A stretch of 64,000 nucleotides of DNA from a virus (Duplodnaviria > Caudoviricetes), in the IMG/VR virus record IMGVR_UViG_3300009509_000020, positions 559 to 64,558 of that record; one strand, given 5' to 3'. Within the stretch, counting starts at the first letter, position 1, and every line of letters begins with the position of its first letter. Below, piece by piece: positions 3,882-20,965 of this stretch. The notes beneath the pieces were generated by a model that was given only the letters and a program-made list of their open reading frames with translations, was not told the origin of the DNA and did no database searches. The translations under genes were made by a program, and so were the position numbers.

Positions 3882-4562
3882 TCACTTACTCACGGCCTTT
3901 TTAACAGCCCTGGCTATTGCCTTGCCCATGGGTAATGGAACGCCATTGCCTATAGCCTTTCCAAGCTCTCGGCGTGTGAACGGTGGAACATCAAAATCAT
4001 TTGGAAGACCTTGTAGTTTTGCCATTTGTTGCCACGTTCTTCCCTTGCCGCGCCTGCTATCTTCCCAATTGCCCCCAATATGATCATGTGCTGTCACACA
4101 ATATTCAAACTCTGGATTGTCAAAAACAACAAGGCCATCATCTATGATCAACTTTCTGCCGTCTTTAGTGCCGAATGAAAACCGCCTGACACGATTCTGT
4201 TTTTCACCAAAAGCTCTATTGTTGACCAGATACGATCGGGTCACATAGTTCTCTGCAAAAGGCAGCGGAGCTTGCCTGACATTTTCCATAAGAAACCAGG
4301 CCGGTTGTGCTTCGGCTATACAGCGTTCAAATTCCGGTATCAAATTTTCCTTGTCTGTAGTAGGATAGGCCGATAATGGCGAAAATGCCTTGCACGGCGG
4401 CCCGCCGATCACGCCGTCAAATTTACCTGCCAGGGGGTGAAAATTACGAATGTCGCCACCCCATATCAAATCGGGGCCGCGTACCACACAAAATCCTTCT
4501 TCCTCGAAGGCCATATCGAGTAAGCCGATTCCTGGAAACAATGACAATACTAATTGTCCCAT
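3882..4562 (-). CDS. C5 DNA cytosine methyltransferase (compact)
   Basis: SLFPGIG (I), GGPPC (IV), MENV (VI), QNRVR (VIII), LQGLP and IGNGV (IX/X). Confidence 0.92.
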   Translation of the reverse strand: MGQLVLSLFPGIGLLDMAFEEEGFCVVRGPDLIWGGDIRNFHPLAGKFDGVIGGPPCKAFSPLSAYPTTDKENLIPEFERCIAEAQPAWFLMENVRQAPLPFAENYVTRSYLVNNRAFGEKQNRVRRFSFGTKDGRKLIIDDGLVVFDNPEFEYCVTAHDHIGGNWEDSRRGKGRTWQQMAKLQGLPNDFDVPPFTRRELGKAIGNGVPLPMGKAIARAVKKAVSK

Positions 4563-6449: not shown

Positions 6450-7040
6450 CTAATGTAATCCAAAAGGATTACATTCATATGTTTGTATAAAAAGATTCCC
6501 TGTCCCTCCGAGGCTTCTATGACCGGCATTCCAATCACACTTGACTTGTACTTTTATTGTAGCCATAACTAAAATATCTATACCGCTAATCTGCATCTGC
6601 TCATCTGTGATTTCCGTGGTAAGCAGAGGCAATTTTATAATACCGCGCTTCAAGAGATCTTTTGTTATTGATACCGCTATTTGGCCCTTGATAGAAGTTG
6701 TTGCATTGCCTAATTTTGATTCGGCTTTTCTTGCCCACGTTTCTGGTATTTCATATTCTGCCAAGTTGGGTATATCTGATGGGGGTATCAATCTGCCTAA
6801 CGCTGTCTTTATTCCAGATTGGCTTGCGCTCACCTCTTTGTATCTCGCAAGATTTAGCGATCTCGCATCCCCAACAGAAAAGACATAAACGCGCCTCGTC
6901 TTTATAGAAACATGACATCTGATTATATCACCATCTTCTTCATATATTCCATATTGTACAAGGTTCTTATTCAACTTCGTTTCCCCATGTATCCCATCCC
7001 TCAAATTTTTCACGTGCAAATAATTCAATGCGTCTGCCAT
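6450..7040 (-). CDS. putative PD-(D/E)XK nuclease-like protein (start uncertain)
   Basis: QISGIDILV...KVQVKCD...TGNLFIQ resembles a D...(E/Q)xK catalytic motif; AT-rich; coupled to the MT-A70 gene. Confidence 0.5.
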   Translation of the reverse strand: MADALNYLHVKNLRDGIHGETKLNKNLVQYGIYEEDGDIIRCHVSIKTRRVYVFSVGDARSLNLARYKEVSASQSGIKTALGRLIPPSDIPNLAEYEIPETWARKAESKLGNATTSIKGQIAVSITKDLLKRGIIKLPLLTTEITDEQMQISGIDILVMATIKVQVKCDWNAGHRSLGGTGNLFIQTYECNPFGLH

Positions 7041-8109
7041 GAGGATATAAGGTGTCTATTATTTTTCTAAACTCTTGCGGTTTTTCAGAATGGCGCTCTG
7101 TGCGTTCGCAAGTCACTACACTATCAAACTTTTTATCACTATCTGGCGTGCAACTTCCCCTGGTACAAATTAGTAGAAATTCATGCCGGACACTGTTGTA
7201 ATGCCCAAAGTTATGCTTGACTTTATCCCAGACAAACGAGGTTTTATACTTGAAACCCCAGGCGCGGATCACTGCAAAACATTCCTCTAGTAGGGGAGAT
7301 GTAACCCATAAAAATAGAACGGCATTATCCTCGGCCATGTTCTTGATTGGCAACTTGCATAGCTCGTCAAGACTCATGGTGGGATAGTGCCGTTCTGCAC
7401 GTCCATAGTTGTCATTGTTTATTACACCAGAGTTTCCATATTGCCACGGGGGATCGGCATAGATGACACGATATTTTCCAGTCGTTTCAAATTCTACTGG
7501 TTCTGGGCGCGTTACCTGTCGGTATGCCTCTTTTGGCTTGACGCCTTGCTCTATCAAGCCAACCATCTTTACTTGTTTTCCTTCTGGTAGCTCTGTGGCT
7601 TTGGCGGCTAGGCTCACGGCTATCTTGTCTAGCTCTACCGCCTGAGCAAGTTCTGGCGCGCCTTTGGCGAGGACTTTCTTGGCGCGTTGAATTGAATCAG
7701 ATGATACATTCAGTAGCGAGCCTGCATCGCCTTGAGAAATTACCGCAAATGCGGTAATTTTCTCCGGTCTGCCAGGCCCTTCCAAATTTGCTATCTTCGC
7801 TGCTACTATTGCCCGTTGGCTTTCGCTTAAATGTCTTCGATGCAAGTTCATACTCACCACGAAAGAAACCAGCGATCCTTGTTTTTCCCACGTCCTGAAT
7901 TGCGGGCGTGTCTCTGTTTCAATACAAGCCCTATGCCGGTTGCGCCCGTCAAGAATACTCCTATCTGGATGTAGCCAGATAGCCTCTCTAAGGCCATTGG
8001 CGGCAATATCGGCTTTAAGTTCCTCAAAGTCTTGCCCCTCCATAAGGGGAAATAACTGCGCTATTTCATTATATGGCCGGTTGATTTCCTGCTCAAGCCA
8101 GTTGTCCAT
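6967..8109 (-). CDS. ParB-N domain fused to MT-A70 family N6-adenine methyltransferase
   Basis: ILDGRNRHRAC and SMNLHRRHL (ParB-like); VIYADPPW, LFLWVT, HSEKP, IELFAR, WGNE (MT-A70). Start re-called at 8109 after AGGAG. Confidence 0.92.
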   Translation of the reverse strand: MDNWLEQEINRPYNEIAQLFPLMEGQDFEELKADIAANGLREAIWLHPDRSILDGRNRHRACIETETRPQFRTWEKQGSLVSFVVSMNLHRRHLSESQRAIVAAKIANLEGPGRPEKITAFAVISQGDAGSLLNVSSDSIQRAKKVLAKGAPELAQAVELDKIAVSLAAKATELPEGKQVKMVGLIEQGVKPKEAYRQVTRPEPVEFETTGKYRVIYADPPWQYGNSGVINNDNYGRAERHYPTMSLDELCKLPIKNMAEDNAVLFLWVTSPLLEECFAVIRAWGFKYKTSFVWDKVKHNFGHYNSVRHEFLLICTRGSCTPDSDKKFDSVVTCERTERHSEKPQEFRKIIDTLYPHGRRIELFAREKFEGWDTWGNEVE

Positions 8110-8123
8110 TTTTCTCCTCAAAC

Positions 8124-8295
8124 AAAAAGCACCGATGATCTGTCCCGGTGGCCGATGGCAATTACCCCCTAGCAATAGGTAACGACCACCGGCACAGATC
8201 GCCAGTGCTTTTTAGCTAGGGGTTTAGGCTTGCCACGGCCCGCGCTTCTTTTAATCGCGCAGCTATATTCTACCACTACTCTCCTGGATTGTCAA
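8124..8295 (-). promoter_or_regulatory. promoter plus structured A-B-A'-B' leader of the MT-A70 operon
   Basis: TTGACA(8295-8290)-17-TAGAAT; helices 8215-8235/8156-8173 and 8183-8213/8124-8154; U-tract after. Confidence 0.65.
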
Positions 8296-9477: not shown

Positions 9478-10440
9478 TCAATTCTTGTAGAGCAAGTTGA
9501 TAACTTTGAATGACAGCCGCTCACCATTCACACTTTGTTCCATGACCGGACGAACGACAATGCCTTCGCGCTGCTTGCCGTTGGGATACAAACCTTCAGC
9601 CAAAGTTCTCAGTTCCTCGTCATTGTACTGGAAAGCAATACCGAATACTGTCTCTTTGACCATTGGAATATCAGACCGTTCGGCCCAATCTTGTACAACT
9701 AGGTAGCCGAAATAATGTCGCCCAACGATATTGTAGACACTGAACAGTCGCCCTTCGACTTTCTTGAGACCCATTGGGTTGCCTTGAATGCCTGGCCCAA
9801 CGACCTCGAATTGCAGGGCAAGTCCATCATCAAGTAGGGTTTCTAACCCGTGTTCTCTGGCGATCTTCCAGATGGCGTTGTTCGGCGTCTCTTTCAATTC
9901 CAAGTTGCGGCTACAACAGCCAAATTGTCCCTTGTATTTGTAGACCGTCGCCGAGCTTCCATCCGCCTTCTCAGTTACGTAAAATGGCAAGCCGCCCAGG
10001 GCTTCTACCAGATGGGGAACAGTCTGGAAGTTCGGCTCATCTGTCTTGGGAACGAAGGACGGGAACCAACCAAGTGCATCACCACCGATTGATAATGACA
10101 ATGGCTTTTCGTACTTAGTGACGCCTGCCTGTTCCGTAACGTCATCTCCGAGATTGCCTGAAACATGAGGCATGATCAACACCTCAGATGGCACGCCTCG
10201 CAAGCGGGCCATCCTCACGCGAAAGTTATACTTGCGCATAAACTCAAATTCTGACAGTTCAGGCAGCAGTGAATCTTGTAGGTAGACTTGGCACAAATCA
10301 CCTGCGACAAATTGTCCCTTCTGAACCGTCCCTTGCCACTTGCCCCCCTTGCCACAGATAACGATGGCCGATTCAATGCGATCTGCATCTGGAATGGGAT
10401 TTATCTCGGCGATTTTTCCCACATATACTAGACCTGACAT
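9478..10440 (-). CDS. RNA ligase, Rnl2/DRB0094 family, with N-terminal OB-like domain
   Basis: INPIPDADRIE, PKTDE, motif I TEKADGSS, CSRN, QFEVVGPGIQGN, REGIVVR, SFKVIN. Confidence 0.9.
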   Translation of the reverse strand: MSGLVYVGKIAEINPIPDADRIESAIVICGKGGKWQGTVQKGQFVAGDLCQVYLQDSLLPELSEFEFMRKYNFRVRMARLRGVPSEVLIMPHVSGNLGDDVTEQAGVTKYEKPLSLSIGGDALGWFPSFVPKTDEPNFQTVPHLVEALGGLPFYVTEKADGSSATVYKYKGQFGCCSRNLELKETPNNAIWKIAREHGLETLLDDGLALQFEVVGPGIQGNPMGLKKVEGRLFSVYNIVGRHYFGYLVVQDWAERSDIPMVKETVFGIAFQYNDEELRTLAEGLYPNGKQREGIVVRPVMEQSVNGERLSFKVINLLYKN

Positions 10441-10454
10441 ATCATTATCTCCTT

Positions 10455-10617
10455 GCATGATAGTCAGTTAAGGCAAATGGATCGTCTGGCTCCGCCCCAG
10501 ATTTTTGCCCCTACAGCAAGTCAGAGCAGGGCAACCCATGCTACCGACCATCTTCTGACTTTTTGGGTCGTGTTCCTGTCCACGACGCGATCCATTTGCC
10601 TTAACTGACTATCATGC
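10455..10617. mobile_element. 163-bp element with perfect 30-bp terminal inverted repeats (IS4-like MITE or structured ncRNA)
   Basis: 10455-10484 is the exact reverse complement of 10588-10617. The end GCATGATAGTCAGTTAAG resembles IS4-type TAATGCCGATCAGTTAAG. No clear target-site duplication. Confidence 0.55.
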
Positions 10618-15673: not shown

Positions 15674-15781
15674 GGGGCTGGTAGCTCAGGCAGGCATGAG
15701 CGCGGCCAATTTCTAGATCGTTGGCTATTATAGTGACACTAGATAAGCTGGGGTCGCTGGTTCAAATCCAGCCCAGCCCCA
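15674..15781 (+). ncRNA. tRNA-like RNA with an elongated anticodon arm
   Basis: GGGGCTGG/CCAGCCCC acceptor, TA-GCTC...GAGC D arm, GCTGG-TTCAAAT-CCAGC T arm; a ~48-nt stem-loop replaces the anticodon arm. Confidence 0.8.
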
Positions 15782-17132: not shown

Positions 17133-17513
17133 GTGTCTCAAAACAATTGTCGCGTCGTGTCTAATCAGAGAGGCCATGTTCTGTTTATCAAAGAATGTGA
17201 GCGATTGCCCCATTGTCTGGTAATTGAGCCACTAGGTGATCCGCTCCCCTGTGAGACGTTGTTGCCATTCGAGGCAGCAGGTGATCCGTCTCCACAAAGC
17301 AAGCCGCGTGGGCGAGCCAGATACACTGGCAAAGACGCCCTCATGGCTGCCTGGCCTGGTAACGGCCCTGTGACCATCTATGACCTGATGCAGGCCACTG
17401 GCAAGGCTAGGTCTACGTTACATGACTACGTCAGCAGGGCGATTGCGCATGGCGATGTGATATGCGCCGGGCAAGATGGGCCGTCGCTGCTCTATGAGTT
17501 GGCAAGGCAATGA
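17133..17513 (+). CDS. HTH-containing protein
   Basis: TIYDLMQATGKARSTLHDYVSRAI winged-helix pattern. Confidence 0.55.
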   Translation: MSQNNCRVVSNQRGHVLFIKECERLPHCLVIEPLGDPLPCETLLPFEAAGDPSPQSKPRGRARYTGKDALMAAWPGNGPVTIYDLMQATGKARSTLHDYVSRAIAHGDVICAGQDGPSLLYELARQ

Positions 17514-18064
17514 GCGATAGCATAAACTGGTTGCCCGTGATGGTGCGATTGAATCAGCTTGACCTTTGGGCCGATAACCCAAAGCGCATGAGCCATGCTC
17601 AGGCCAAACGGCTGGAAACATCAACAGACAAATTGGGCAGGGCCGGGGCATTGCTCATTGGGCCACAGACAAATGGCGGGGCTTTCCCGCTTTACGACGG
17701 CCACCAGCGCGTCAGGATATGGTCTGCGCTGTATGGCGACAATCTGGAGGTTAATGCCTTGCAAGCCCACAGACCGCTTACCGATAAAGAGCAGCGCGAA
17801 GTATCATTGCTGACCATCACGGCCCAGGCGAGTTTCGATTGGGACATTCTGGCAGGATGGGACTTTGAGGACTTGACAGCGGGCGGATTCAGCGAGGGGC
17901 TGCTTGTCGAATGGAACGATGGCGCGCTTAATCTGCGGGAGATGTTGATGGCGGAAGAAGTAATACCGGACTTTCGGCCCGTTTCGGCAGATGAACAGCC
18001 GAGACTTGACCAGAGGTCGCCCGTGACTTGTCCTGAGTGTGGCGCAGAGTTTATACCTAAATGA
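17510..18064 (+). CDS. ParB/Srx-like protein with C-terminal Zn ribbon
   Basis: NPKR, DGHQRV, FDWDIL, EQPRLD...CPECGAEF; ATGA-coupled to the Mom gene. Confidence 0.8.
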   Translation: MSDSINWLPVMVRLNQLDLWADNPKRMSHAQAKRLETSTDKLGRAGALLIGPQTNGGAFPLYDGHQRVRIWSALYGDNLEVNALQAHRPLTDKEQREVSLLTITAQASFDWDILAGWDFEDLTAGGFSEGLLVEWNDGALNLREMLMAEEVIPDFRPVSADEQPRLDQRSPVTCPECGAEFIPK

Positions 18065-18720
18065 GCCGGCCCGATGTAGTGGTAGACTGGTGTAGCTATG
18101 AGGCTGCCAAGTATGCGGTTGAGCATTGGCATTATAGTAAGCGAATGCTAGCGGGCAAATATATGAGTATCGGGATATGGGAAAACAGATTGTTTATCGG
18201 GGCTATTGTATTTAGTCACGGGGCTAACAAGGCAATTGGCAAGCAATATGGTCTGTCTCTTTTTCTGGCCTGTGAATTAAGCCGCGTGGCAATGACTAAG
18301 CACGCCATATTTGTTTCACATTTGATAGCAAAATCGTTATCTATGCTAAAAAGCCAAGCAGATCGGTTACGGCTTGTCGTTTCATACGCAGACCAAAGAG
18401 AGGGACACATAGGGGCGATTTATCAGGCCAGTAATTGGATATATGTAGGGCAATCGAGTGGGAATGATAGACGTAATTGCCCATATTTGAAACCTGGCGG
18501 CGGGATTGTGCAGTGGCGCACTATGTCAAAGATATGTCAGCGGCATGGAATGTCACACACCTTACAGGCGGCTATATCGTTGGGCTATACCCCGCTTGGC
18601 TTTATGCCAAAGCACAAATACCTCTACCCTCTCGATAAGGCCATGCGCCGACAAATCGAGCCTTTGGCACAACCATATCCAAAACGCGAACATGCGGGCG
18701 AGGTGCATGATGGTGCATAA
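18061..18720 (+). CDS. mom: Mom-family (GNAT-fold) DNA adenine-modifying enzyme
   Basis: HWHYS, CELSRVA, VVSYAD...GH.GAIYQASNW.Y.G, KHKYLYPL, PYPK. Confidence 0.85.
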   Translation: MSRPDVVVDWCSYEAAKYAVEHWHYSKRMLAGKYMSIGIWENRLFIGAIVFSHGANKAIGKQYGLSLFLACELSRVAMTKHAIFVSHLIAKSLSMLKSQADRLRLVVSYADQREGHIGAIYQASNWIYVGQSSGNDRRNCPYLKPGGGIVQWRTMSKICQRHGMSHTLQAAISLGYTPLGFMPKHKYLYPLDKAMRRQIEPLAQPYPKREHAGEVHDGA

Positions 18721-18765
18721 CTGGCGACCAGTCAGCAGGCGCAGGTTCAATTCCTGCCGCCCGCT
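18694..18765 (+). tRNA. non-canonical tRNA-Gly(ACC) overlapping the mom 3' end
   Basis: GCGGGCG/CGCCCGC + U73; D stem GTGC/GCAT; anticodon stem CTGG/TCAG with loop CG-ACC-AG; 4-nt variable loop; GCAGG-TTCAATT-CCTGC; no encoded CCA. Confidence 0.8.
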
Positions 18766-18896
18766 TTGGCAGTTGGGATAACTTGGGATAAGTTTGGGAT
18801 ATTGGCACTTGGGACGATATTAGAGATGGCTGAGGTGTATATTTTGCGTGAGACAATCAAACACTGAGCAGAGTATTATCACCAAAGCTGAAAGGA

Positions 18897-19127
18897 ATGA
18901 AGATGGAAATATTACAAAAACTATACGATAGTGAGATAAACTTTAGATTGTCTTGTTTCTTTGATGCTGGTTTTGAAGCAAGTCTAGGTGATGAAATAAA
19001 TGGGTTTAAAGCATCAGACGAAAACTTTGAGACCTTAGAAGAAGCCATAGACCATCTTGTAAATATGGCAAAGAAGTTCTATCCAGAATCAGAATTTTCA
19101 AGAACTATAGAAACTGGCGGACGATAA
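18897..19127 (+). CDS. hypothetical protein (AT-rich)
   Basis: AAGGA RBS. Confidence 0.6.
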   Translation: MKMEILQKLYDSEINFRLSCFFDAGFEASLGDEINGFKASDENFETLEEAIDHLVNMAKKFYPESEFSRTIETGGR

Positions 19128-19143
19128 TAAATAGTGAGACTAT

Positions 19144-19698
19144 ATGGCCGAAGAAAAAGAACACAGAAAACCTAGACGGTCGGCAGCGCAGCTTGCACGT
19201 GACAGGCGACGCATAGCCGGGCTTTACCTTGAGGGCCAGCTACAGGCTGACATTGCCGAGGCCGTTGGTGTCTCACAGTCTACCGTATCTAATGACCTGA
19301 AGGCGATACAACAGGAATGGCTACAATCGTCCTTGATGGACTTCAACGAGGCGCGGGCGCAAGAGATTGCAAAGATTGACCGGCTAGAGCGCGAATACTG
19401 GGCAGCTTGGCAGCGCAGTTGTGAGGACGCCGAAACGTCTACCCAAAAGGTAAAAGGCAAGCTACAGAAATACCAGGATGATAGCGGAAAGTTCGTAGCC
19501 GAACAGCCGGCGGAAGCGACTAAAACAAGCCGGGAACAGGCAGGCGATCCGAGGTTCCTGAGTGGCGTCCAGTGGTGTATCGAGCGGCGGTGCAAGCTGT
19601 TGGGAATTGACGCACCACAGCGTCACGAATTGACAGGCGCGGATGGCGGCCCGGTTATCCTGAACTACGTTGGGAACATAAGTCCAGATGACCTATGA
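19144..19698 (+). CDS. terminase small subunit (HTH)
   Basis: QADIAEAVGVSQSTVSNDL...IERRCKLLGIDAP...ELTGADGGP; overlaps the large subunit gene. Confidence 0.8.
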   Translation: MAEEKEHRKPRRSAAQLARDRRRIAGLYLEGQLQADIAEAVGVSQSTVSNDLKAIQQEWLQSSLMDFNEARAQEIAKIDRLEREYWAAWQRSCEDAETSTQKVKGKLQKYQDDSGKFVAEQPAEATKTSREQAGDPRFLSGVQWCIERRCKLLGIDAPQRHELTGADGGPVILNYVGNISPDDL

Positions 19699-20965
19699 AA
19701 ATCCCTATCGCTTTTATGGACAAATCAGAGAGGCGATACTTTGCCGTGACAGAGAGGTTATCATCGAAGGCCCTGCTGATACGGGCAAAACTCTTGGCTT
19801 GCTATGGAAACTTCATACCCTGGCCTACAAATATCCGGGCTGCCAGCTTGCCATAATTCGCAAACGAAAAACTGACATAACTGGCACATCGTTCCATACC
19901 TTAAAAAGAGATTTACTGACAGACTATGGCCCTGGCATAGAGGTATACGGCGGTCAATATCCACAGTGGATCGACTATCCCACAGGATCGCGCTTATGGT
20001 TCGGTGGGATGGATGATCCAGGTAAGACGCTATCTGCGGAGCGTGACATGATATATGTCAACCAAGCCGAAGAGCTTGCCTTGTCCGACTGGGAATACCT
20101 GATCCGGTGCGTAACAGGGCGTGGGGCGGTAATGCCATATACGCAGCTTATAGGTGATGTGAATCCAGGCCCCCCTACACATTGGATTCTATCGCGGGCG
20201 AAAAGTGGCGCATTGCGGTTATTCAAATCAACTCATAGAGATAATCCGATGTTGTATGACCAGGCGACGGGCGAGCTTACAGAGGGCGGCAAGGGCCGCC
20301 TGGATGCACTAAAACGCCTAACCGGCTCTCGATTATTGCGGCTTTATCATGGCTTGTGGGCCGCGCCAGAAGGAGCAATCTACGATGTATTTGACCAGGA
20401 GAAGCACGTCGTCAAGGCATTCCCAATTCCGCCATTCTGGCCTAGAGCGGTTGGCATTGACCCATTCGGCGCAACAGTGGCCGCTGTTTGGTTGGCCTTC
20501 GACCCACAGAATAACAAGCTAAATGTCTACCGTGAATATGCAGAGCCATTCGGTCTTACGACGGCAGGCCATGCGGCCAACATTCTTGAGGTTTCAAGGG
20601 GCGAGTCAGTATTTGCCTGGGTATGTGGCGGCCCATCTGAGCGGGCATGGCGCGTCGAATGGCAAGCAAGTGGCATACCGGTGCTTGAGCCGCCAATTAG
20701 CGATGTTTGGGTTGGTGTAGACAGGGTATATCAACTACTCAGAGAGTTCTCGTTAGTAATTCACGATAATTGTATGGGACTGATAAGCGAGATTGGTAAC
20801 TATAGGCGCAAGCTAGATAGACAAGGCCAGCCGACAGATGCTATAGAAAGCAAGGAAAGCTACCACTTGCTTGATAGCCTGCGCTATGTCGTAAGCTGGC
20901 TATCGCATGTCGAGGCCACACAGGAACGAATGAGTTTTAGTCCATATAGACTAGGGAGAGTATAA
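19688..20965 (+). CDS. terminase large subunit
   Basis: GPADTGKT Walker A, DVNP..PTHW, HRDNP, GIDP, HLLDSLRY. Confidence 0.93.
   Translation: MTYENPYRFYGQIREAILCRDREVIIEGPADTGKTLGLLWKLHTLAYKYPGCQLAIIRKRKTDITGTSFHTLKRDLLTDYGPGIEVYGGQYPQWIDYPTGSRLWFGGMDDPGKTLSAERDMIYVNQAEELALSDWEYLIRCVTGRGAVMPYTQLIGDVNPGPPTHWILSRAKSGALRLFKSTHRDNPMLYDQATGELTEGGKGRLDALKRLTGSRLLRLYHGLWAAPEGAIYDVFDQEKHVVKAFPIPPFWPRAVGIDPFGATVAAVWLAFDPQNNKLNVYREYAEPFGLTTAGHAANILEVSRGESVFAWVCGGPSERAWRVEWQASGIPVLEPPISDVWVGVDRVYQLLREFSLVIHDNCMGLISEIGNYRRKLDRQGQPTDAIESKESYHLLDSLRYVVSWLSHVEATQERMSFSPYRLGRV

What the first reader, a model, noticed from the sequence alone, without database searches (positions are those of the whole stretch)
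17510..18765. Mom-family DNA hypermodifier with a non-canonical tRNA-Gly(ACC) embedded in its 3' end: candidate dedicated glycyl donor
SEEN: 18694-18765 folds as a full 72-nt cloverleaf that overlaps the last 9 codons of the mom-like gene (stop 18718-20). Acceptor is GCGGGCG/CGCCCGC with discriminator U, the anticodon loop is CG-ACC-AG, the variable loop is 4 nt and the T arm is GCAGG-TTCAATT-CCTGC. KNOWN: G1-C72, C2-G71, G3-C70, U73 and C35/C36 are the bacterial GlyRS identity elements, and all are present. Features needed for translation are altered: A8 for U8, G33 for U33, an ACC anticodon not normally used in bacteria, and A51-U63, the weak EF-Tu pair of staphylococcal non-proteinogenic tRNA-Gly used by FemXAB. 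From recall (to verify), Mu Mom transfers glycine from Gly-tRNA-Gly to adenine N6. INFERENCE: ParB-like + Mom + cis-encoded tRNA form a self-contained modification module whose tRNA is charged by host GlyRS, escapes the ribosome and feeds Mom.
Basis: partly seen in the sequence, partly recalled or inferred. Interest (0 to 1): 0.95.

Follow-up and report, generated by a model that had tools for sequence, protein, structure and literature searches.

The report
Phage Mom gene's private glycine tRNA
A phage gene for Mom, an enzyme known to take glycine from charged glycine-tRNA to disguise DNA, ends in a deformed glycine-tRNA gene that recurs at the same spot in nearly all related Mom genes, so it is probably the enzyme's own glycine carrier, though nobody has tested this at the bench.

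Summary
Window 18694-18765(+) is a 72-nt cloverleaf. It passes Rfam's tRNA model (35.8 bits, threshold 29), although default ARAGORN misses it. It overlaps the last 9 codons of a clear Mom-family gene (Pfam PF25680, 136.9 bits).

A covariance model built from 17 copies finds the element at the mom 3' end in 73 of 80 viral loci and in 86 of 90 genome and metagenome loci. No match at E <= 0.2 lies away from a mom gene in about 743 kb.

Across 124 unique copies, G1-C72 and C2-G71 are invariant, U73 is in 123 and G3-C70 in 119. Every tabulated anticodon loop holds the CC doublet, and 59 copies encode CCA. U8 occurs in only 11, U33 is rare, and 118 carry a bulged A in the T stem.

Mu Mom uses Gly-tRNAGly (PMC13219725). 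The best reading, at about 0.65, is a phage-encoded glycyl carrier dedicated to Mom. Charging, processing and use are all untested.

The RNA was seen inside mom homologs in 2011 (PMC3146451) with no function assigned. This scan has noted the same pairing before on other DNA. The window's copy is atypical: it has a regular T arm, so EF-Tu escape is poorly supported for this copy.

The parts
17510..18064 (+). Upstream ORF (184 aa): ParB-N-like protein with a conserved GHQR motif and a C-terminal CPxC zinc-ribbon-like tail. It is the first gene of the module and overlaps the mom start by 4 nt.
   Evidence: ORF. Its only Pfam hit is a weak Zn_ribbon_19 match (E 0.089). It matches PHROG 9353, of unknown function. 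It is 30% identical over 155 aa (E 3e-10) to the phiEf11 protein annotated as ParB-like by PF02195. 7 of 30 family members match Pfam ParB_N (best E 5.2e-9), and G64, H65 and R67 are invariant or nearly so. A homolog lies directly upstream of mom in 150 of 174 loci.
18061..18720 (+). mom homolog (219 aa), a GNAT-fold Mom-family DNA modification enzyme. The conserved domain ends at residue 208, and the last 9 codons are tRNA sequence.
   Evidence: Pfam PF25680 Mom at 136.9 bits, residues 6-208. PHROG 1384 at 156.3 bits. Residues 10-132 align to Mu Mom 8bv8_A at E 2.2e-8, with an Arg (window R75) and a Ser (window S86) at the columns I infer to be Mu R111 and S124. That residue numbering offset is my inference.
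18694..18765 (+). tRNA-Gly-like gene, 72 nt, anticodon ACC at 18727-18729. It has G1-C72, C2-G71, G3-C70, U73, C35, C36, A8, G33, a potential C32-G38 pair, an A27.C43 mismatch and a regular T arm. No CCA is encoded (TTG follows).
   Evidence: Rfam RF00005 at 35.8 bits. Called by ARAGORN at -ps90. Cloverleaf minimum-free-energy fold. Member of the mom-linked family (model R1, 58.5 bits; it was one of the 17 seed sequences, so that score is partly by construction). A near-identical relative has U43, which restores the 27-43 pair, and G37.

Best explanation
The 72-nt element is a real, conserved RNA gene of a family of deviant glycine tRNAs that travel with one large subfamily of Mom genes. That subfamily is the one preceded by a ParB-N-like gene.

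The likely mechanism is as follows.
1. The RNA is made on the parB-like/mom transcript and cut out by the host's tRNA-processing enzymes (inferred).
2. It receives CCA from the host CCA-adding enzyme where CCA is not encoded, as in this window (inferred).
3. It is glycylated by the host GlyRS, because it keeps every known GlyRS identity element (inferred from the conservation pattern).
4. It is a poor substrate for the ribosome, because U33 and a 7-nt anticodon loop are missing. In most family members it is probably also a poor EF-Tu substrate, because of a bulged A in the T stem (inferred).
5. It therefore supplies a pool of Gly-tRNA that Mom can use to glycylate adenine N6 in phage DNA. The product rearranges to N6-carbamoylmethyl-adenine and protects the DNA from restriction. 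This chemistry is shown for Mu Mom only.

Shown here: the RNA's structure, its conservation, its covariation, and its near-constant position at the mom 3' end. Not shown: expression, processing, charging, or use by Mom.
For: (1) Linkage.
- Default ARAGORN makes 12 tRNA calls in 80 Mom loci. Eleven sit on the mom 3' end on the same strand. Ten of those are tRNA-Gly and one is undetermined with anticodon 'gacc'.
- Model R1 hits the mom 3' end in 73 of 80 viral loci (E <= 2.3e-4). The only other matches in 490,903 bases are L036, also at the mom end (E 0.21), and one on the minus strand of L071 (E 0.95).
- R1 hits 86 of 90 genome and metagenome loci. Two of the four misses are contigs that end right after mom.
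- With filters off, 8 further loci show weaker matches at the same spot (19.9-29.6 bits), and L076 has none.

(2) It is an RNA structure.
- On a plain MAFFT alignment, 17 of 21 pairs show compensatory changes.
- On the model-fitted alignment, 97.7% of cells are paired against 35.5-41.8% when partners are slid. 18 of 21 pairs have double changes. The covariation score is 0.594 against at most 0.093 when slid, and 0 of 500 shuffles reach the observed values.

(3) What is conserved is the GlyRS identity set, not the translation set. The counts are over 124 unique copies.
- G1-C72 and C2-G71: 124. G3-C70: 119, with the other 5 being C3-G70. U73: 123.
- Every anticodon-loop type tabulated (the 30 commonest) holds the CC doublet, usually followed by A. 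In the earlier tally, which is reliable for positions before the variable loop, C35 is in 135 of 135 rows and C36 in 134.
- CCA follows U73 in 59, where chance would give about 1 in 64.
- By contrast, position 8 is A in 101 and U in 11.
- 100 copies have a 5-nt loop closed by a 32-38 pair. Of the 99 listed 5-nt loops, only 14 start with U33.
- Position 34 is A in 49, U in 42, C in 7 and G in 1.
- 118 have a bulged A in the 3' strand of the T stem.
- The GlyRS determinants named in PMC7826273 (passage) are G1-C72, the C2 pair, U73, C35 and C36.

(4) Mu Mom needs Gly-tRNAGly with an intact 3' A. It accepts all three E. coli isoacceptors but not Gly-tRNAAla, and it is thought to read the acceptor end (PMC13219725, sections 9, 10, 14).

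(5) The RNA acts in trans, because position and strand can change while the linkage is kept.
- In Microbacterium phage Appa it lies 33 nt after mom on the opposite strand.
- In a Chloroflexota contig it lies upstream of mom, as in the Dehalococcoides islands (PMC3146451).

(6) It occurs in cultured phages.
- Salinibacter phage B2_17: annotated tRNA-Gly, 91.8 bits.
- Arthrobacter phage BarretLemon: unannotated, 55.9 bits.
- Pseudanabaena phage Pan3: unannotated, 30.5 bits.

(7) A near-identical relative of the window changes C43 to U, which repairs the 27-43 pair, and changes A37 to G. Contigs of related phages diverge from the window just upstream of about 18772, so the cassette ends right after the tRNA.
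Against: - There is no experimental or expression evidence of any kind.
- Mu Mom works with host tRNAGly, so a private tRNA is not needed for the chemistry.
- The element is not universal. phiEf11, whose Mom is 43% identical to the window's, has none. Four of four sampled distant Mom homologs also have none within 1.2 kb: Salmonella VSiP, Listeria A511, HGTV-1 and the Mu-like Pseudomonas JD024.
- The window's copy lacks the family's bulged A. Its T stem (G49-C65, C50-G64, A51-U63) shares only one pair with the weak EF-Tu set of staphylococcal non-proteogenic tRNAs. It also has a canonical T loop and GG in the D loop. It could therefore still bind EF-Tu.
- It encodes no CCA and has an A27.C43 mismatch.
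- Because the gene lies inside the mom ORF, cutting the tRNA out would remove mom's stop codon from that transcript. That is awkward for simple co-expression.
- Some family members have lost the D arm (a complete D stem is present in 96 of 124). Most have a non-canonical T loop, which might hamper processing, CCA addition or charging.
- Alignments A2 and A3 were fitted to the model, so their pair counts lean towards it. Some metagenome loci are the same contigs as viral loci, which is why I count unique sequences.
Confidence: 0.65

Rival explanations
1. It is an ordinary decoding tRNA-Gly. The phage supplies it to top up the translational Gly-tRNA pool, for example to offset what Mom drains or to match phage codon usage.
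For: Phages often carry tRNAs (general knowledge). The window's copy passes Rfam's tRNA model and has a canonical T loop and GG in the D loop. The Appa copy looks fully canonical, with a 7-nt loop, U33 and CCA.
Against: Across the family, U33 is present in only 14 of 99 listed 5-nt loops, and 100 of 124 copies have a 5-nt loop closed by a 32-38 pair. Position 34 drifts between A, U and C, while G34, which I recall as the common bacterial Gly anticodon, is almost absent. U8 is present in only 11 of 124 copies, and 118 of 124 have a bulged T stem. The window has G33, A8 and an ACC anticodon. A general need for tRNA would not explain why the element is always tRNA-Gly and always sits against mom.
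Confidence: 0.1
2. It is a cis-acting RNA element of the mom transcript, with no role as a donor. One version is an RNase P/Z cleavage site that ends or destabilises the mom mRNA by leaving it without a stop codon, which would limit a toxic enzyme. Another version is a 3' tRNA-like structure that stabilises the message.
For: There are 131 non-identical loci with the element downstream of mom. In 110 the mom frame stops only after the tRNA, in 17 inside it, and in just 2 before it. The tRNA start lies -47 to +13 nt from the end of Mom homology, with a median of -6. No terminator-like site follows mom on the + strand in the window.
Against: A processing signal would not need C35, C36, U73 and G1-C72/C2-G71 to be invariant, nor an encoded CCA in 59 of 124 copies. 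In Appa the element is on the opposite strand, and in L094 and the Dehalococcoides islands it lies at the 5' side, so it cannot always act on the mom 3' end. This role could also coexist with the donor role.
Confidence: 0.1
3. It is a regulatory decoy or scaffold. The RNA binds Mom or the ParB-like protein, for example as an uncharged competitor that holds Mom inactive until late, and never donates glycine.
For: Mom is thought to recognise the tRNAGly acceptor end (PMC13219725 discussion), so an acceptor-stem mimic could bind it. Mu mom expression is known to be tightly controlled; that paper cites this, but I did not examine it.
Against: The anticodon nucleotides C35 and C36 are GlyRS determinants, and Mom is not known to read them. 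Their invariance, together with the enrichment of CCA, points to charging.
Confidence: 0.08
4. It is a chance cloverleaf, a decayed tRNA pseudogene, or a copy of a host tRNA kept as a phage attachment site.
For: Default ARAGORN rejects it. It has A8, G33 and a stem mismatch. tRNA genes are common integration sites (general knowledge).
Against: There are 124 unique copies with compensatory changes, all at the same position relative to mom. An attachment site needs only the 3' part of a host tRNA and would match that tRNA rather than evolve by covariation. In the Dehalococcoides islands integration is at ssrA, not at this element. I did not screen the whole window for an integrase.
Confidence: 0.02

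Closest known systems
Phage Mu Mom with host Gly-tRNAGly (Silva et al., Nat Commun 2026, PMC13219725; structure 8bv8)
   Same: Same enzyme family: Pfam Mom at 136.9 bits, aligned to 8bv8 at E 2.2e-8, with the Arg and Ser that I map to the catalytic R111 and S124 present. The co-substrate shown for Mu is Gly-tRNAGly, which is the tRNA type encoded here.
   Different: Mu uses whatever host tRNAGly isoacceptor is available, and the paper's main text mentions no linked tRNA gene ('tRNA gene' 1 hit in Methods, 'tRNA-like' 0, 'ParB' 0; supplements not seen). A Mu-like Pseudomonas phage Mom locus has no such element. Here the enzyme gene ends in its own deviant tRNA-Gly and follows a ParB-N-like gene.
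The tRNA-Gly-like 'pseudo-tRNA' embedded in mom homologs of Dehalococcoides ssrA genomic islands (McMurdie et al., BMC Genomics 2011, PMC3146451; passages read)
   Same: A tRNA-Gly-like locus of about 76 bp, with anticodon DCC, embedded in a mom homolog that follows a ParBc-domain gene. It is conserved in 16 islands and in a deep-sea fosmid. This is the same kind of module as here.
   Different: There the element lies in the first 150 bp of the annotated mom ORF, and no function was proposed because Mom was then thought to be a methylation-type enzyme. Here it lies at the 3' end, in a phage next to the terminase genes. I did not align the Dehalococcoides copies with model R1. Their figure is in a supplement I could not see.
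Non-proteogenic tRNAGly (NP1-NP3) of Staphylococcus aureus, the glycine donors for FemXAB/FmhB (Rietmeyer et al., NAR 2021, PMC7826273; abstract and passages read)
   Same: The logic is the same. A tRNAGly keeps the GlyRS determinants but interacts poorly with EF-Tu and the ribosome, so an aminoacyl-transferase outside translation gets its own pool of Gly-tRNA. The window copy shares A51-U63.
   Different: Those are cellular tRNAs that feed cell-wall synthesis, and they are not linked to the transferase gene. Their weak EF-Tu binding rests on A49-U65, U50-A64 and A51-U63. The mom-linked family uses a bulged A in the T stem and a closed 5-nt anticodon loop instead, and the window copy has neither the bulge nor two of those three pairs.

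Membership tests
tRNA (Rfam RF00005) | Cloverleaf that scores above the family's gathering score | tested here: met
   35.8 bits against a gathering score of 29, model positions 1-71. The minimum-free-energy fold is a cloverleaf.
tRNA (canonical elongator) | U8, U33 and an open 7-nt anticodon loop; recognised by a standard tRNA finder | tested here: not met
   A8, G33 and a C32-G38 pair, which leave a 5-nt loop in the minimum-free-energy fold. Default ARAGORN makes no call in the window, and calls the element only at -ps90.
Bacterial tRNA-Gly (GlyRS substrate) | Identity set G1-C72, C2-G71, G3-C70, U73, C35, C36 | tested here: met
   All six are present in the window copy and nearly invariant in 124 unique relatives. 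The determinants are as listed in PMC7826273; G3-C70 is from my recall.
Bacterial tRNA-Gly (GlyRS substrate) | Actually glycylated by GlyRS | not testable with these tools
   Needs in vitro charging or acid-gel northern blots.
   The window tRNA starts 3 codons after the last Pfam-matched Mom residue. The same position holds in 159 of 160 model hits; L094 is upstream.
mom-linked tRNA-Gly-like family | Closed NNCCA anticodon loop (32-38 pair) | tested here: met
   The window has C32-G38 around GACCA, which is the commonest loop in the family (28 of 124 unique copies).
mom-linked tRNA-Gly-like family | Bulged A in the 3' strand of the T stem (GGCGG...CCG-A-CC) | tested here: not met
   118 of 124 unique copies have it. 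The window has a regular GCAGG/CCTGC T stem and is one of 3 copies with no extra base at that spot. It belongs to a minority of regular-T-arm copies, together with L004, L012/L014/L128, L099, L103, L131, BarretLemon and Appa.
Mom (Pfam PF25680) | Full-length match to the Mom model, with the catalytic Arg and Ser present | tested here: met
   136.9 bits, residues 6-208 against model positions 2-202. R75 and S86 align with the residues I infer to be Mu R111 and S124. The numbering offset of chain 8bv8_A is inferred from the M107/R111/S124A pattern quoted.
Mom (Pfam PF25680) | Makes N6-carbamoylmethyl-adenine in DNA | not testable with these tools
   Needs LC-MS of DNA from a cultured carrier or from expression in E. 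coli.
Staphylococcal non-proteogenic tRNAGly | Weak EF-Tu T-stem set A49-U65, U50-A64, A51-U63 | tested here: not met
   The window has G49-C65, C50-G64 and A51-U63, so one of the three. It may work like these tRNAs but is not one of them.
ParB N-terminal domain (Pfam PF02195), for the upstream ORF | Match to ParB_N | tested here: inconclusive
   The window protein gives no ParB_N hit even at E 0.1. 7 of 30 aligned homologs match (best E 5.2e-9), and the GHQR motif is conserved. The protein is 30% identical to the phiEf11 protein annotated by PF02195.

The most novel reading that the evidence does not exclude
Mom enzymes of this subfamily and their embedded RNAs form portable, orthogonal enzyme/carrier pairs. 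The RNA keeps only what any bacterial GlyRS needs. It has shed what EF-Tu and the ribosome need. It has also gained features, such as the bulged-A T arm and the closed NNCCA loop, that its own Mom may read. This would let the cassette work in hosts from many phyla whatever their tRNAGly looks like.

Because the RNA lies inside the mom reading frame, each transcript could yield either the enzyme or the carrier. Cutting out the tRNA leaves a stop-less mom message, which would build in a limit on a toxic enzyme.
Probability: 0.25. Interest if true: 0.9.

Novelty: new variant of a known kind. Interest (0 to 1): 0.8.

Why it matters
It has been in print since 2026 (preprint 2023) that Mom hypermodifies DNA with glycine taken from charged tRNA. 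If a large branch of the family carries its own carrier RNA, that would be the first virus-encoded tRNA devoted to DNA modification rather than translation. It would parallel the staphylococcal cell-wall tRNAs.

It would explain a 'pseudo-tRNA' that has sat unexplained in annotations since 2011. It would also flag a class of RNA genes that standard finders miss: default ARAGORN called 11 of 80 loci, and Rfam's tRNA threshold was passed in 1 of 20. These genes lie hidden inside protein-coding annotations.

The conservation pattern is a natural experiment on what GlyRS needs and what translation needs. The hypothesis can be tested directly in cultured phages of Salinibacter, Arthrobacter and Pseudanabaena. 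An orthogonal tRNA/transferase pair could also be useful as a tool.

Tried and rejected
Expression evidence. The look-up of sequencing runs listed no RNA holder for window 17500-19700, so nothing can be said about expression or processing.

Read laying used DNA contigs only. Parts of mom had no cover in three of the four runs, which I do not interpret.

Closer relatives of the window's own variant. The best Mom homolog in the viral, genome and metagenome collections is 54% identical. Fine-scale covariation of this particular variant therefore rests only on the two substitutions seen.

Origin of the regular-T-arm variant. The Mom tree was the quick version, because the careful search did not finish in 300 s. 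Only 29 of 128 branches were well supported, and rows shorter than 170 aa or with identical proteins were dropped, leaving 131 rows. Regular-T-arm copies appear in several places, but the tree cannot show whether they arose once or several times.

A count I corrected. My first feature tally was mis-indexed after the variable loop for alignment A3, so I redid it. Counts are reliable only for positions before the variable loop.

A claim I corrected. My first statement that no locus has a stop before the tRNA looked only beyond the end of the tblastn match. The more careful scan finds 2 such loci, L019 and L107.

The second tRNA-like hit at 15675-15780. I considered it as a second donor and rejected that: model R1 does not match it and it has no Gly features.

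Rivals considered and set aside. The attachment-site, pseudogene and chance readings are covered under the rival explanations.

Steps not taken. I did not run complex prediction on the ParB-like protein and Mom, because I do not claim that they bind. I did not fold the proteins.

Literature. Searches for a published link between mom and a private tRNA returned only the two Mom papers, the 2011 island paper and unrelated papers (passages). The supplements of PMC13219725 (homolog lists and contigs) and of PMC3146451 (Figure S1, the tRNA-Gly alignment) could bear on novelty and I did not see them.
Full report
WHAT IS THERE

The window is bases 559-64558 of a single 64,558-base contig. Its gene layout looks like a phage. 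Leftward genes run up to about 14 kb and include a C5 cytosine methylase, an MT-A70 methylase, an RNA ligase and a DUF5131 protein. A long rightward block follows, containing a helix-turn-helix small-terminase-like ORF (19144-19698) and a large terminase (19688-20965; Pfam Terminase_3, 29 bits).

Immediately before the terminase genes lie three overlapping or abutting elements on the + strand:
- a 184-aa ORF at 17510-18064;
- a 219-aa ORF at 18061-18720;
- the 72-nt element at 18694-18765.

The 219-aa ORF is a clear Mom. It scores 136.9 bits on Pfam PF25680 over residues 6-208 and 156.3 bits on PHROG 1384. It matches the Mu Mom crystal structure 8bv8 at E 2.2e-8. In that alignment the window has an Arg (R75) and a Ser (S86) at the columns that I infer to be Mu R111 and S124, the two residues that Silva et al. 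report as essential. The numbering offset of the crystal chain is my inference.

THE OBSERVATION

It overlooked two things: an A27.C43 mismatch in the anticodon stem, and the fact that C32 and G38 can pair, so the minimum-free-energy fold has a 5-nt anticodon loop.

Rfam's tRNA model matches at 35.8 bits against a threshold of 29. Default ARAGORN finds no tRNA in the window, but calls tRNA-Gly(acc) at these coordinates once its threshold is relaxed to 90%.

IS IT CONSERVED?

I collected 80 viral-contig loci encoding Mom homologs at 39-50% identity. Default ARAGORN makes 12 tRNA calls in them. Eleven sit on the 3' end of mom on the same strand: ten are tRNA-Gly (anticodons acc, ccc, tcc) and one is undetermined (gacc). 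The twelfth is an unrelated call on the opposite strand of L050.

I aligned 17 copies, including the window's. RNAalifold gave a cloverleaf in which 17 of 21 pairs show compensatory changes. I built covariance model R1 from that alignment.

R1 finds the element in the window and in 73 of the 80 loci at E <= 2.3e-4, always on the mom strand and at the mom 3' end. The only other matches in 490,903 bases are L036, also at the mom end (E 0.21), and one at E 0.95 on the minus strand of L071.

A second set came from 10 genome or MAG contigs and 80 metagenome contigs. It gave 86 of 90 at E <= 6.8e-4. Two of the four misses are contigs that end right after mom. With the speed filters off, the other two (L085, L097) and six of the seven earlier misses show weaker matches (19.9-29.6 bits) at the same place. 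L076 shows none.

Some metagenome contigs are the same DNA as viral contigs, so I count unique sequences: 160 hits give 124 unique RNAs.

On the model-fitted alignment of the first set, 97.7% of cells are paired against 35.5-41.8% when partners are slid. 18 of 21 pairs have changes on both sides, and 0 of 500 shuffles reach the observed values. That alignment leans towards the model. The MAFFT result does not.

WHAT IS CONSERVED AND WHAT IS NOT (124 unique copies)

Conserved:
- G1-C72 and C2-G71 in all 124.
- G3-C70 in 119; the other 5 have C3-G70.
- U73 in 123.
- Every anticodon-loop type tabulated (the 30 commonest) contains CC, usually followed by A. In the tally C35 is in 135 of 135 rows and C36 in 134.
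- CCA follows U73 in 59.

Not conserved:
- Position 8 is A in 101 and U in 11.
- 100 copies have a 5-nt loop closed by a 32-38 pair.
- Among the 99 listed 5-nt loops, position 33 is G in 37, A in 34, C in 14 and U in 14.
- Position 34 is A in 49, U in 42, C in 7 and G in 1.
- A complete D stem is present in 96, and GG in the D loop in 52.
- Most T loops begin TGC, CGC or GGC rather than TTC.

The family hallmark is an extra A in the 3' strand of the T stem, present in 118 copies.

According to Rietmeyer et al. (PMC7826273, passage), the GlyRS determinants are G1-C72, the C2 pair, U73, C35 and C36. So what the family keeps is what the synthetase reads, plus an aminoacylatable end. What it lets go is what decoding needs.

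The general Rfam tRNA model recognises only 1 of 20 of these loci at its threshold. This explains why they are rarely annotated.

GEOMETRY

The tRNA starts -47 to +13 nt (median -6) from the end of Mom homology. There are 131 non-identical loci with the element downstream. The mom frame stops after the tRNA in 110, inside it in 17 (the window among them), and before it in 2. In the remaining 2 the contig ends first.

tRNA position 1 falls in all three codon phases: 106, 32 and 21 of 159 hits. The tail is therefore not a conserved peptide. The RNA gene is simply packed into the end of the ORF. Cutting the tRNA out would leave that mom message without a stop codon. I cannot explain this and flag it as open.

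THE MODULE

A homolog of the upstream ORF lies directly upstream on the same strand in 150 of 174 loci. The window's protein gives no Pfam ParB hit. It is 30% identical to the phiEf11 protein annotated as ParB-like, and 7 of 30 aligned family members match Pfam ParB_N. A GHQR motif and a C-terminal CPxC are conserved.

CULTURED PHAGES

- Salinibacter phage B2_17 has an annotated tRNA-Gly right after its Mom homolog (91.8 bits with R1).
- Arthrobacter phage BarretLemon has an unannotated copy overlapping the end of its annotated Mom CDS (55.9 bits).
- Pseudanabaena phage Pan3 has one inside the end of its Mom CDS (30.5 bits).
- Microbacterium phage Appa has an annotated, canonical-looking tRNA-Gly(ccc) 33 nt after mom, on the opposite strand.
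- Enterococcus phage phiEf11 has none.
- Four more distant Mom loci have none within 1.2 kb: Salmonella VSiP, Listeria A511, HGTV-1 and the Mu-like Pseudomonas JD024.

The element therefore marks a large subfamily, not all Moms.

The MAG labels of positive loci span Bacillota, Thermodesulfobacteriota, Acidobacteriota, Verrucomicrobiota, Pseudomonadota, Planctomycetota, Omnitrophota, Ignavibacteriota and Chloroflexota. Binning of phage contigs is not reliable evidence of host.

CLOSE RELATIVES OF THE WINDOW

A 15,915-nt contig in run X3 matches 17508-18818 with 8 differences. Two fall in the tRNA. 18736 C>T turns A27.C43 into A27-U43, and 18730 A>G keeps a purine at position 37.

Contigs in all four runs laid diverge from the window just upstream of about 18772. 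The TTGGGATA repeat array that follows is shared by many other contigs. This places the right edge of the cassette a few bases after the tRNA.

WHAT IS KNOWN

Silva et al. (PMC13219725; abstract and sections 9, 10, 14 read; preprint searched) show that Mu Mom transfers glycine from Gly-tRNAGly to adenine N6. All three E. coli isoacceptors work, Gly-tRNAAla does not, and the acceptor end is probably what Mom reads. Their main text does not mention linked tRNA genes. I could not see the supplements.

McMurdie et al. (PMC3146451; passages) described a conserved 76-bp tRNA-Gly-like 'pseudo-tRNA' embedded in a mom homolog next to a ParBc gene in Dehalococcoides islands and in a deep-sea fosmid. They proposed no function.

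My searches found no paper that joins the two.

Earlier notes of this scan report the same pairing on other DNA: 195 notes in at least 140 genomes. I treated them as leads only.

VERDICT

The element is real and belongs to a widespread family linked to mom. The best explanation is a private glycyl carrier for Mom (confidence 0.65). The rivals are a decoding tRNA, a cis-acting processing signal, a decoy, and a relic.

The window's copy is unusual in having a regular T arm.

Noticed in passing
window 15675-15780 (+): A second tRNA-like RNA (Rfam tRNA, 37.1 bits) with normal acceptor, D and T arms. About 40 nt stand in place of a normal anticodon arm. Default ARAGORN does not call it, and with introns allowed it gives an unconvincing tRNA-Pro. 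Model R1 does not match it, so it is not part of the mom system.
   Followed up: partly
window 18766-18814: Directly after the tRNA's discriminator there are three TTGGGATA repeats spaced 10-11 nt apart and two copies of TTGGCA(G/C)TTGGGA. Metagenome contigs with different upstream DNA share this array: depth spikes there and loose ends cluster at about 18772. It may be a protein-binding array, such as a packaging or regulatory site, and a mosaic junction.
   Followed up: partly
window 18818-19144: The small ORF 18897-19127 (76 aa, no family hit) is missing in close relatives. Contigs in runs X3 and X8 skip 325 nt here and carry 7-8 other letters instead.
   Followed up: no
window 3882-4562, 6967-8175, 9478-10458 (all - strand): The phage also encodes a C5 cytosine methylase, an MT-A70 methylase and an RNA ligase (PF09414 plus an OB-fold domain). 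It therefore stacks several DNA-modification systems. An RNA ligase also lies next to the Mom-like gene of halovirus HGTV-1.
   Followed up: no
L091:970-1038 and 1045-1108: Two tandem copies of the mom-linked tRNA-like element follow one mom gene. The second is cut by the contig end.
   Followed up: no
L083:2071-2144 (Arthrobacter phage BarretLemon) and L175:1768-1836 (Pseudanabaena phage Pan3): These are unannotated copies of the element inside the 3' ends of annotated Mom-like or hypothetical CDSs in GenBank records of cultured phages. The CDS ends are probably over-extended through an RNA gene.
   Followed up: partly
L084:2127-2201 (Microbacterium phage Appa): The annotated tRNA-Gly(ccc) next to mom is on the opposite strand and looks canonical, with a 7-nt loop, U33 and CCA. 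The linkage therefore survives a change of strand.
   Followed up: partly
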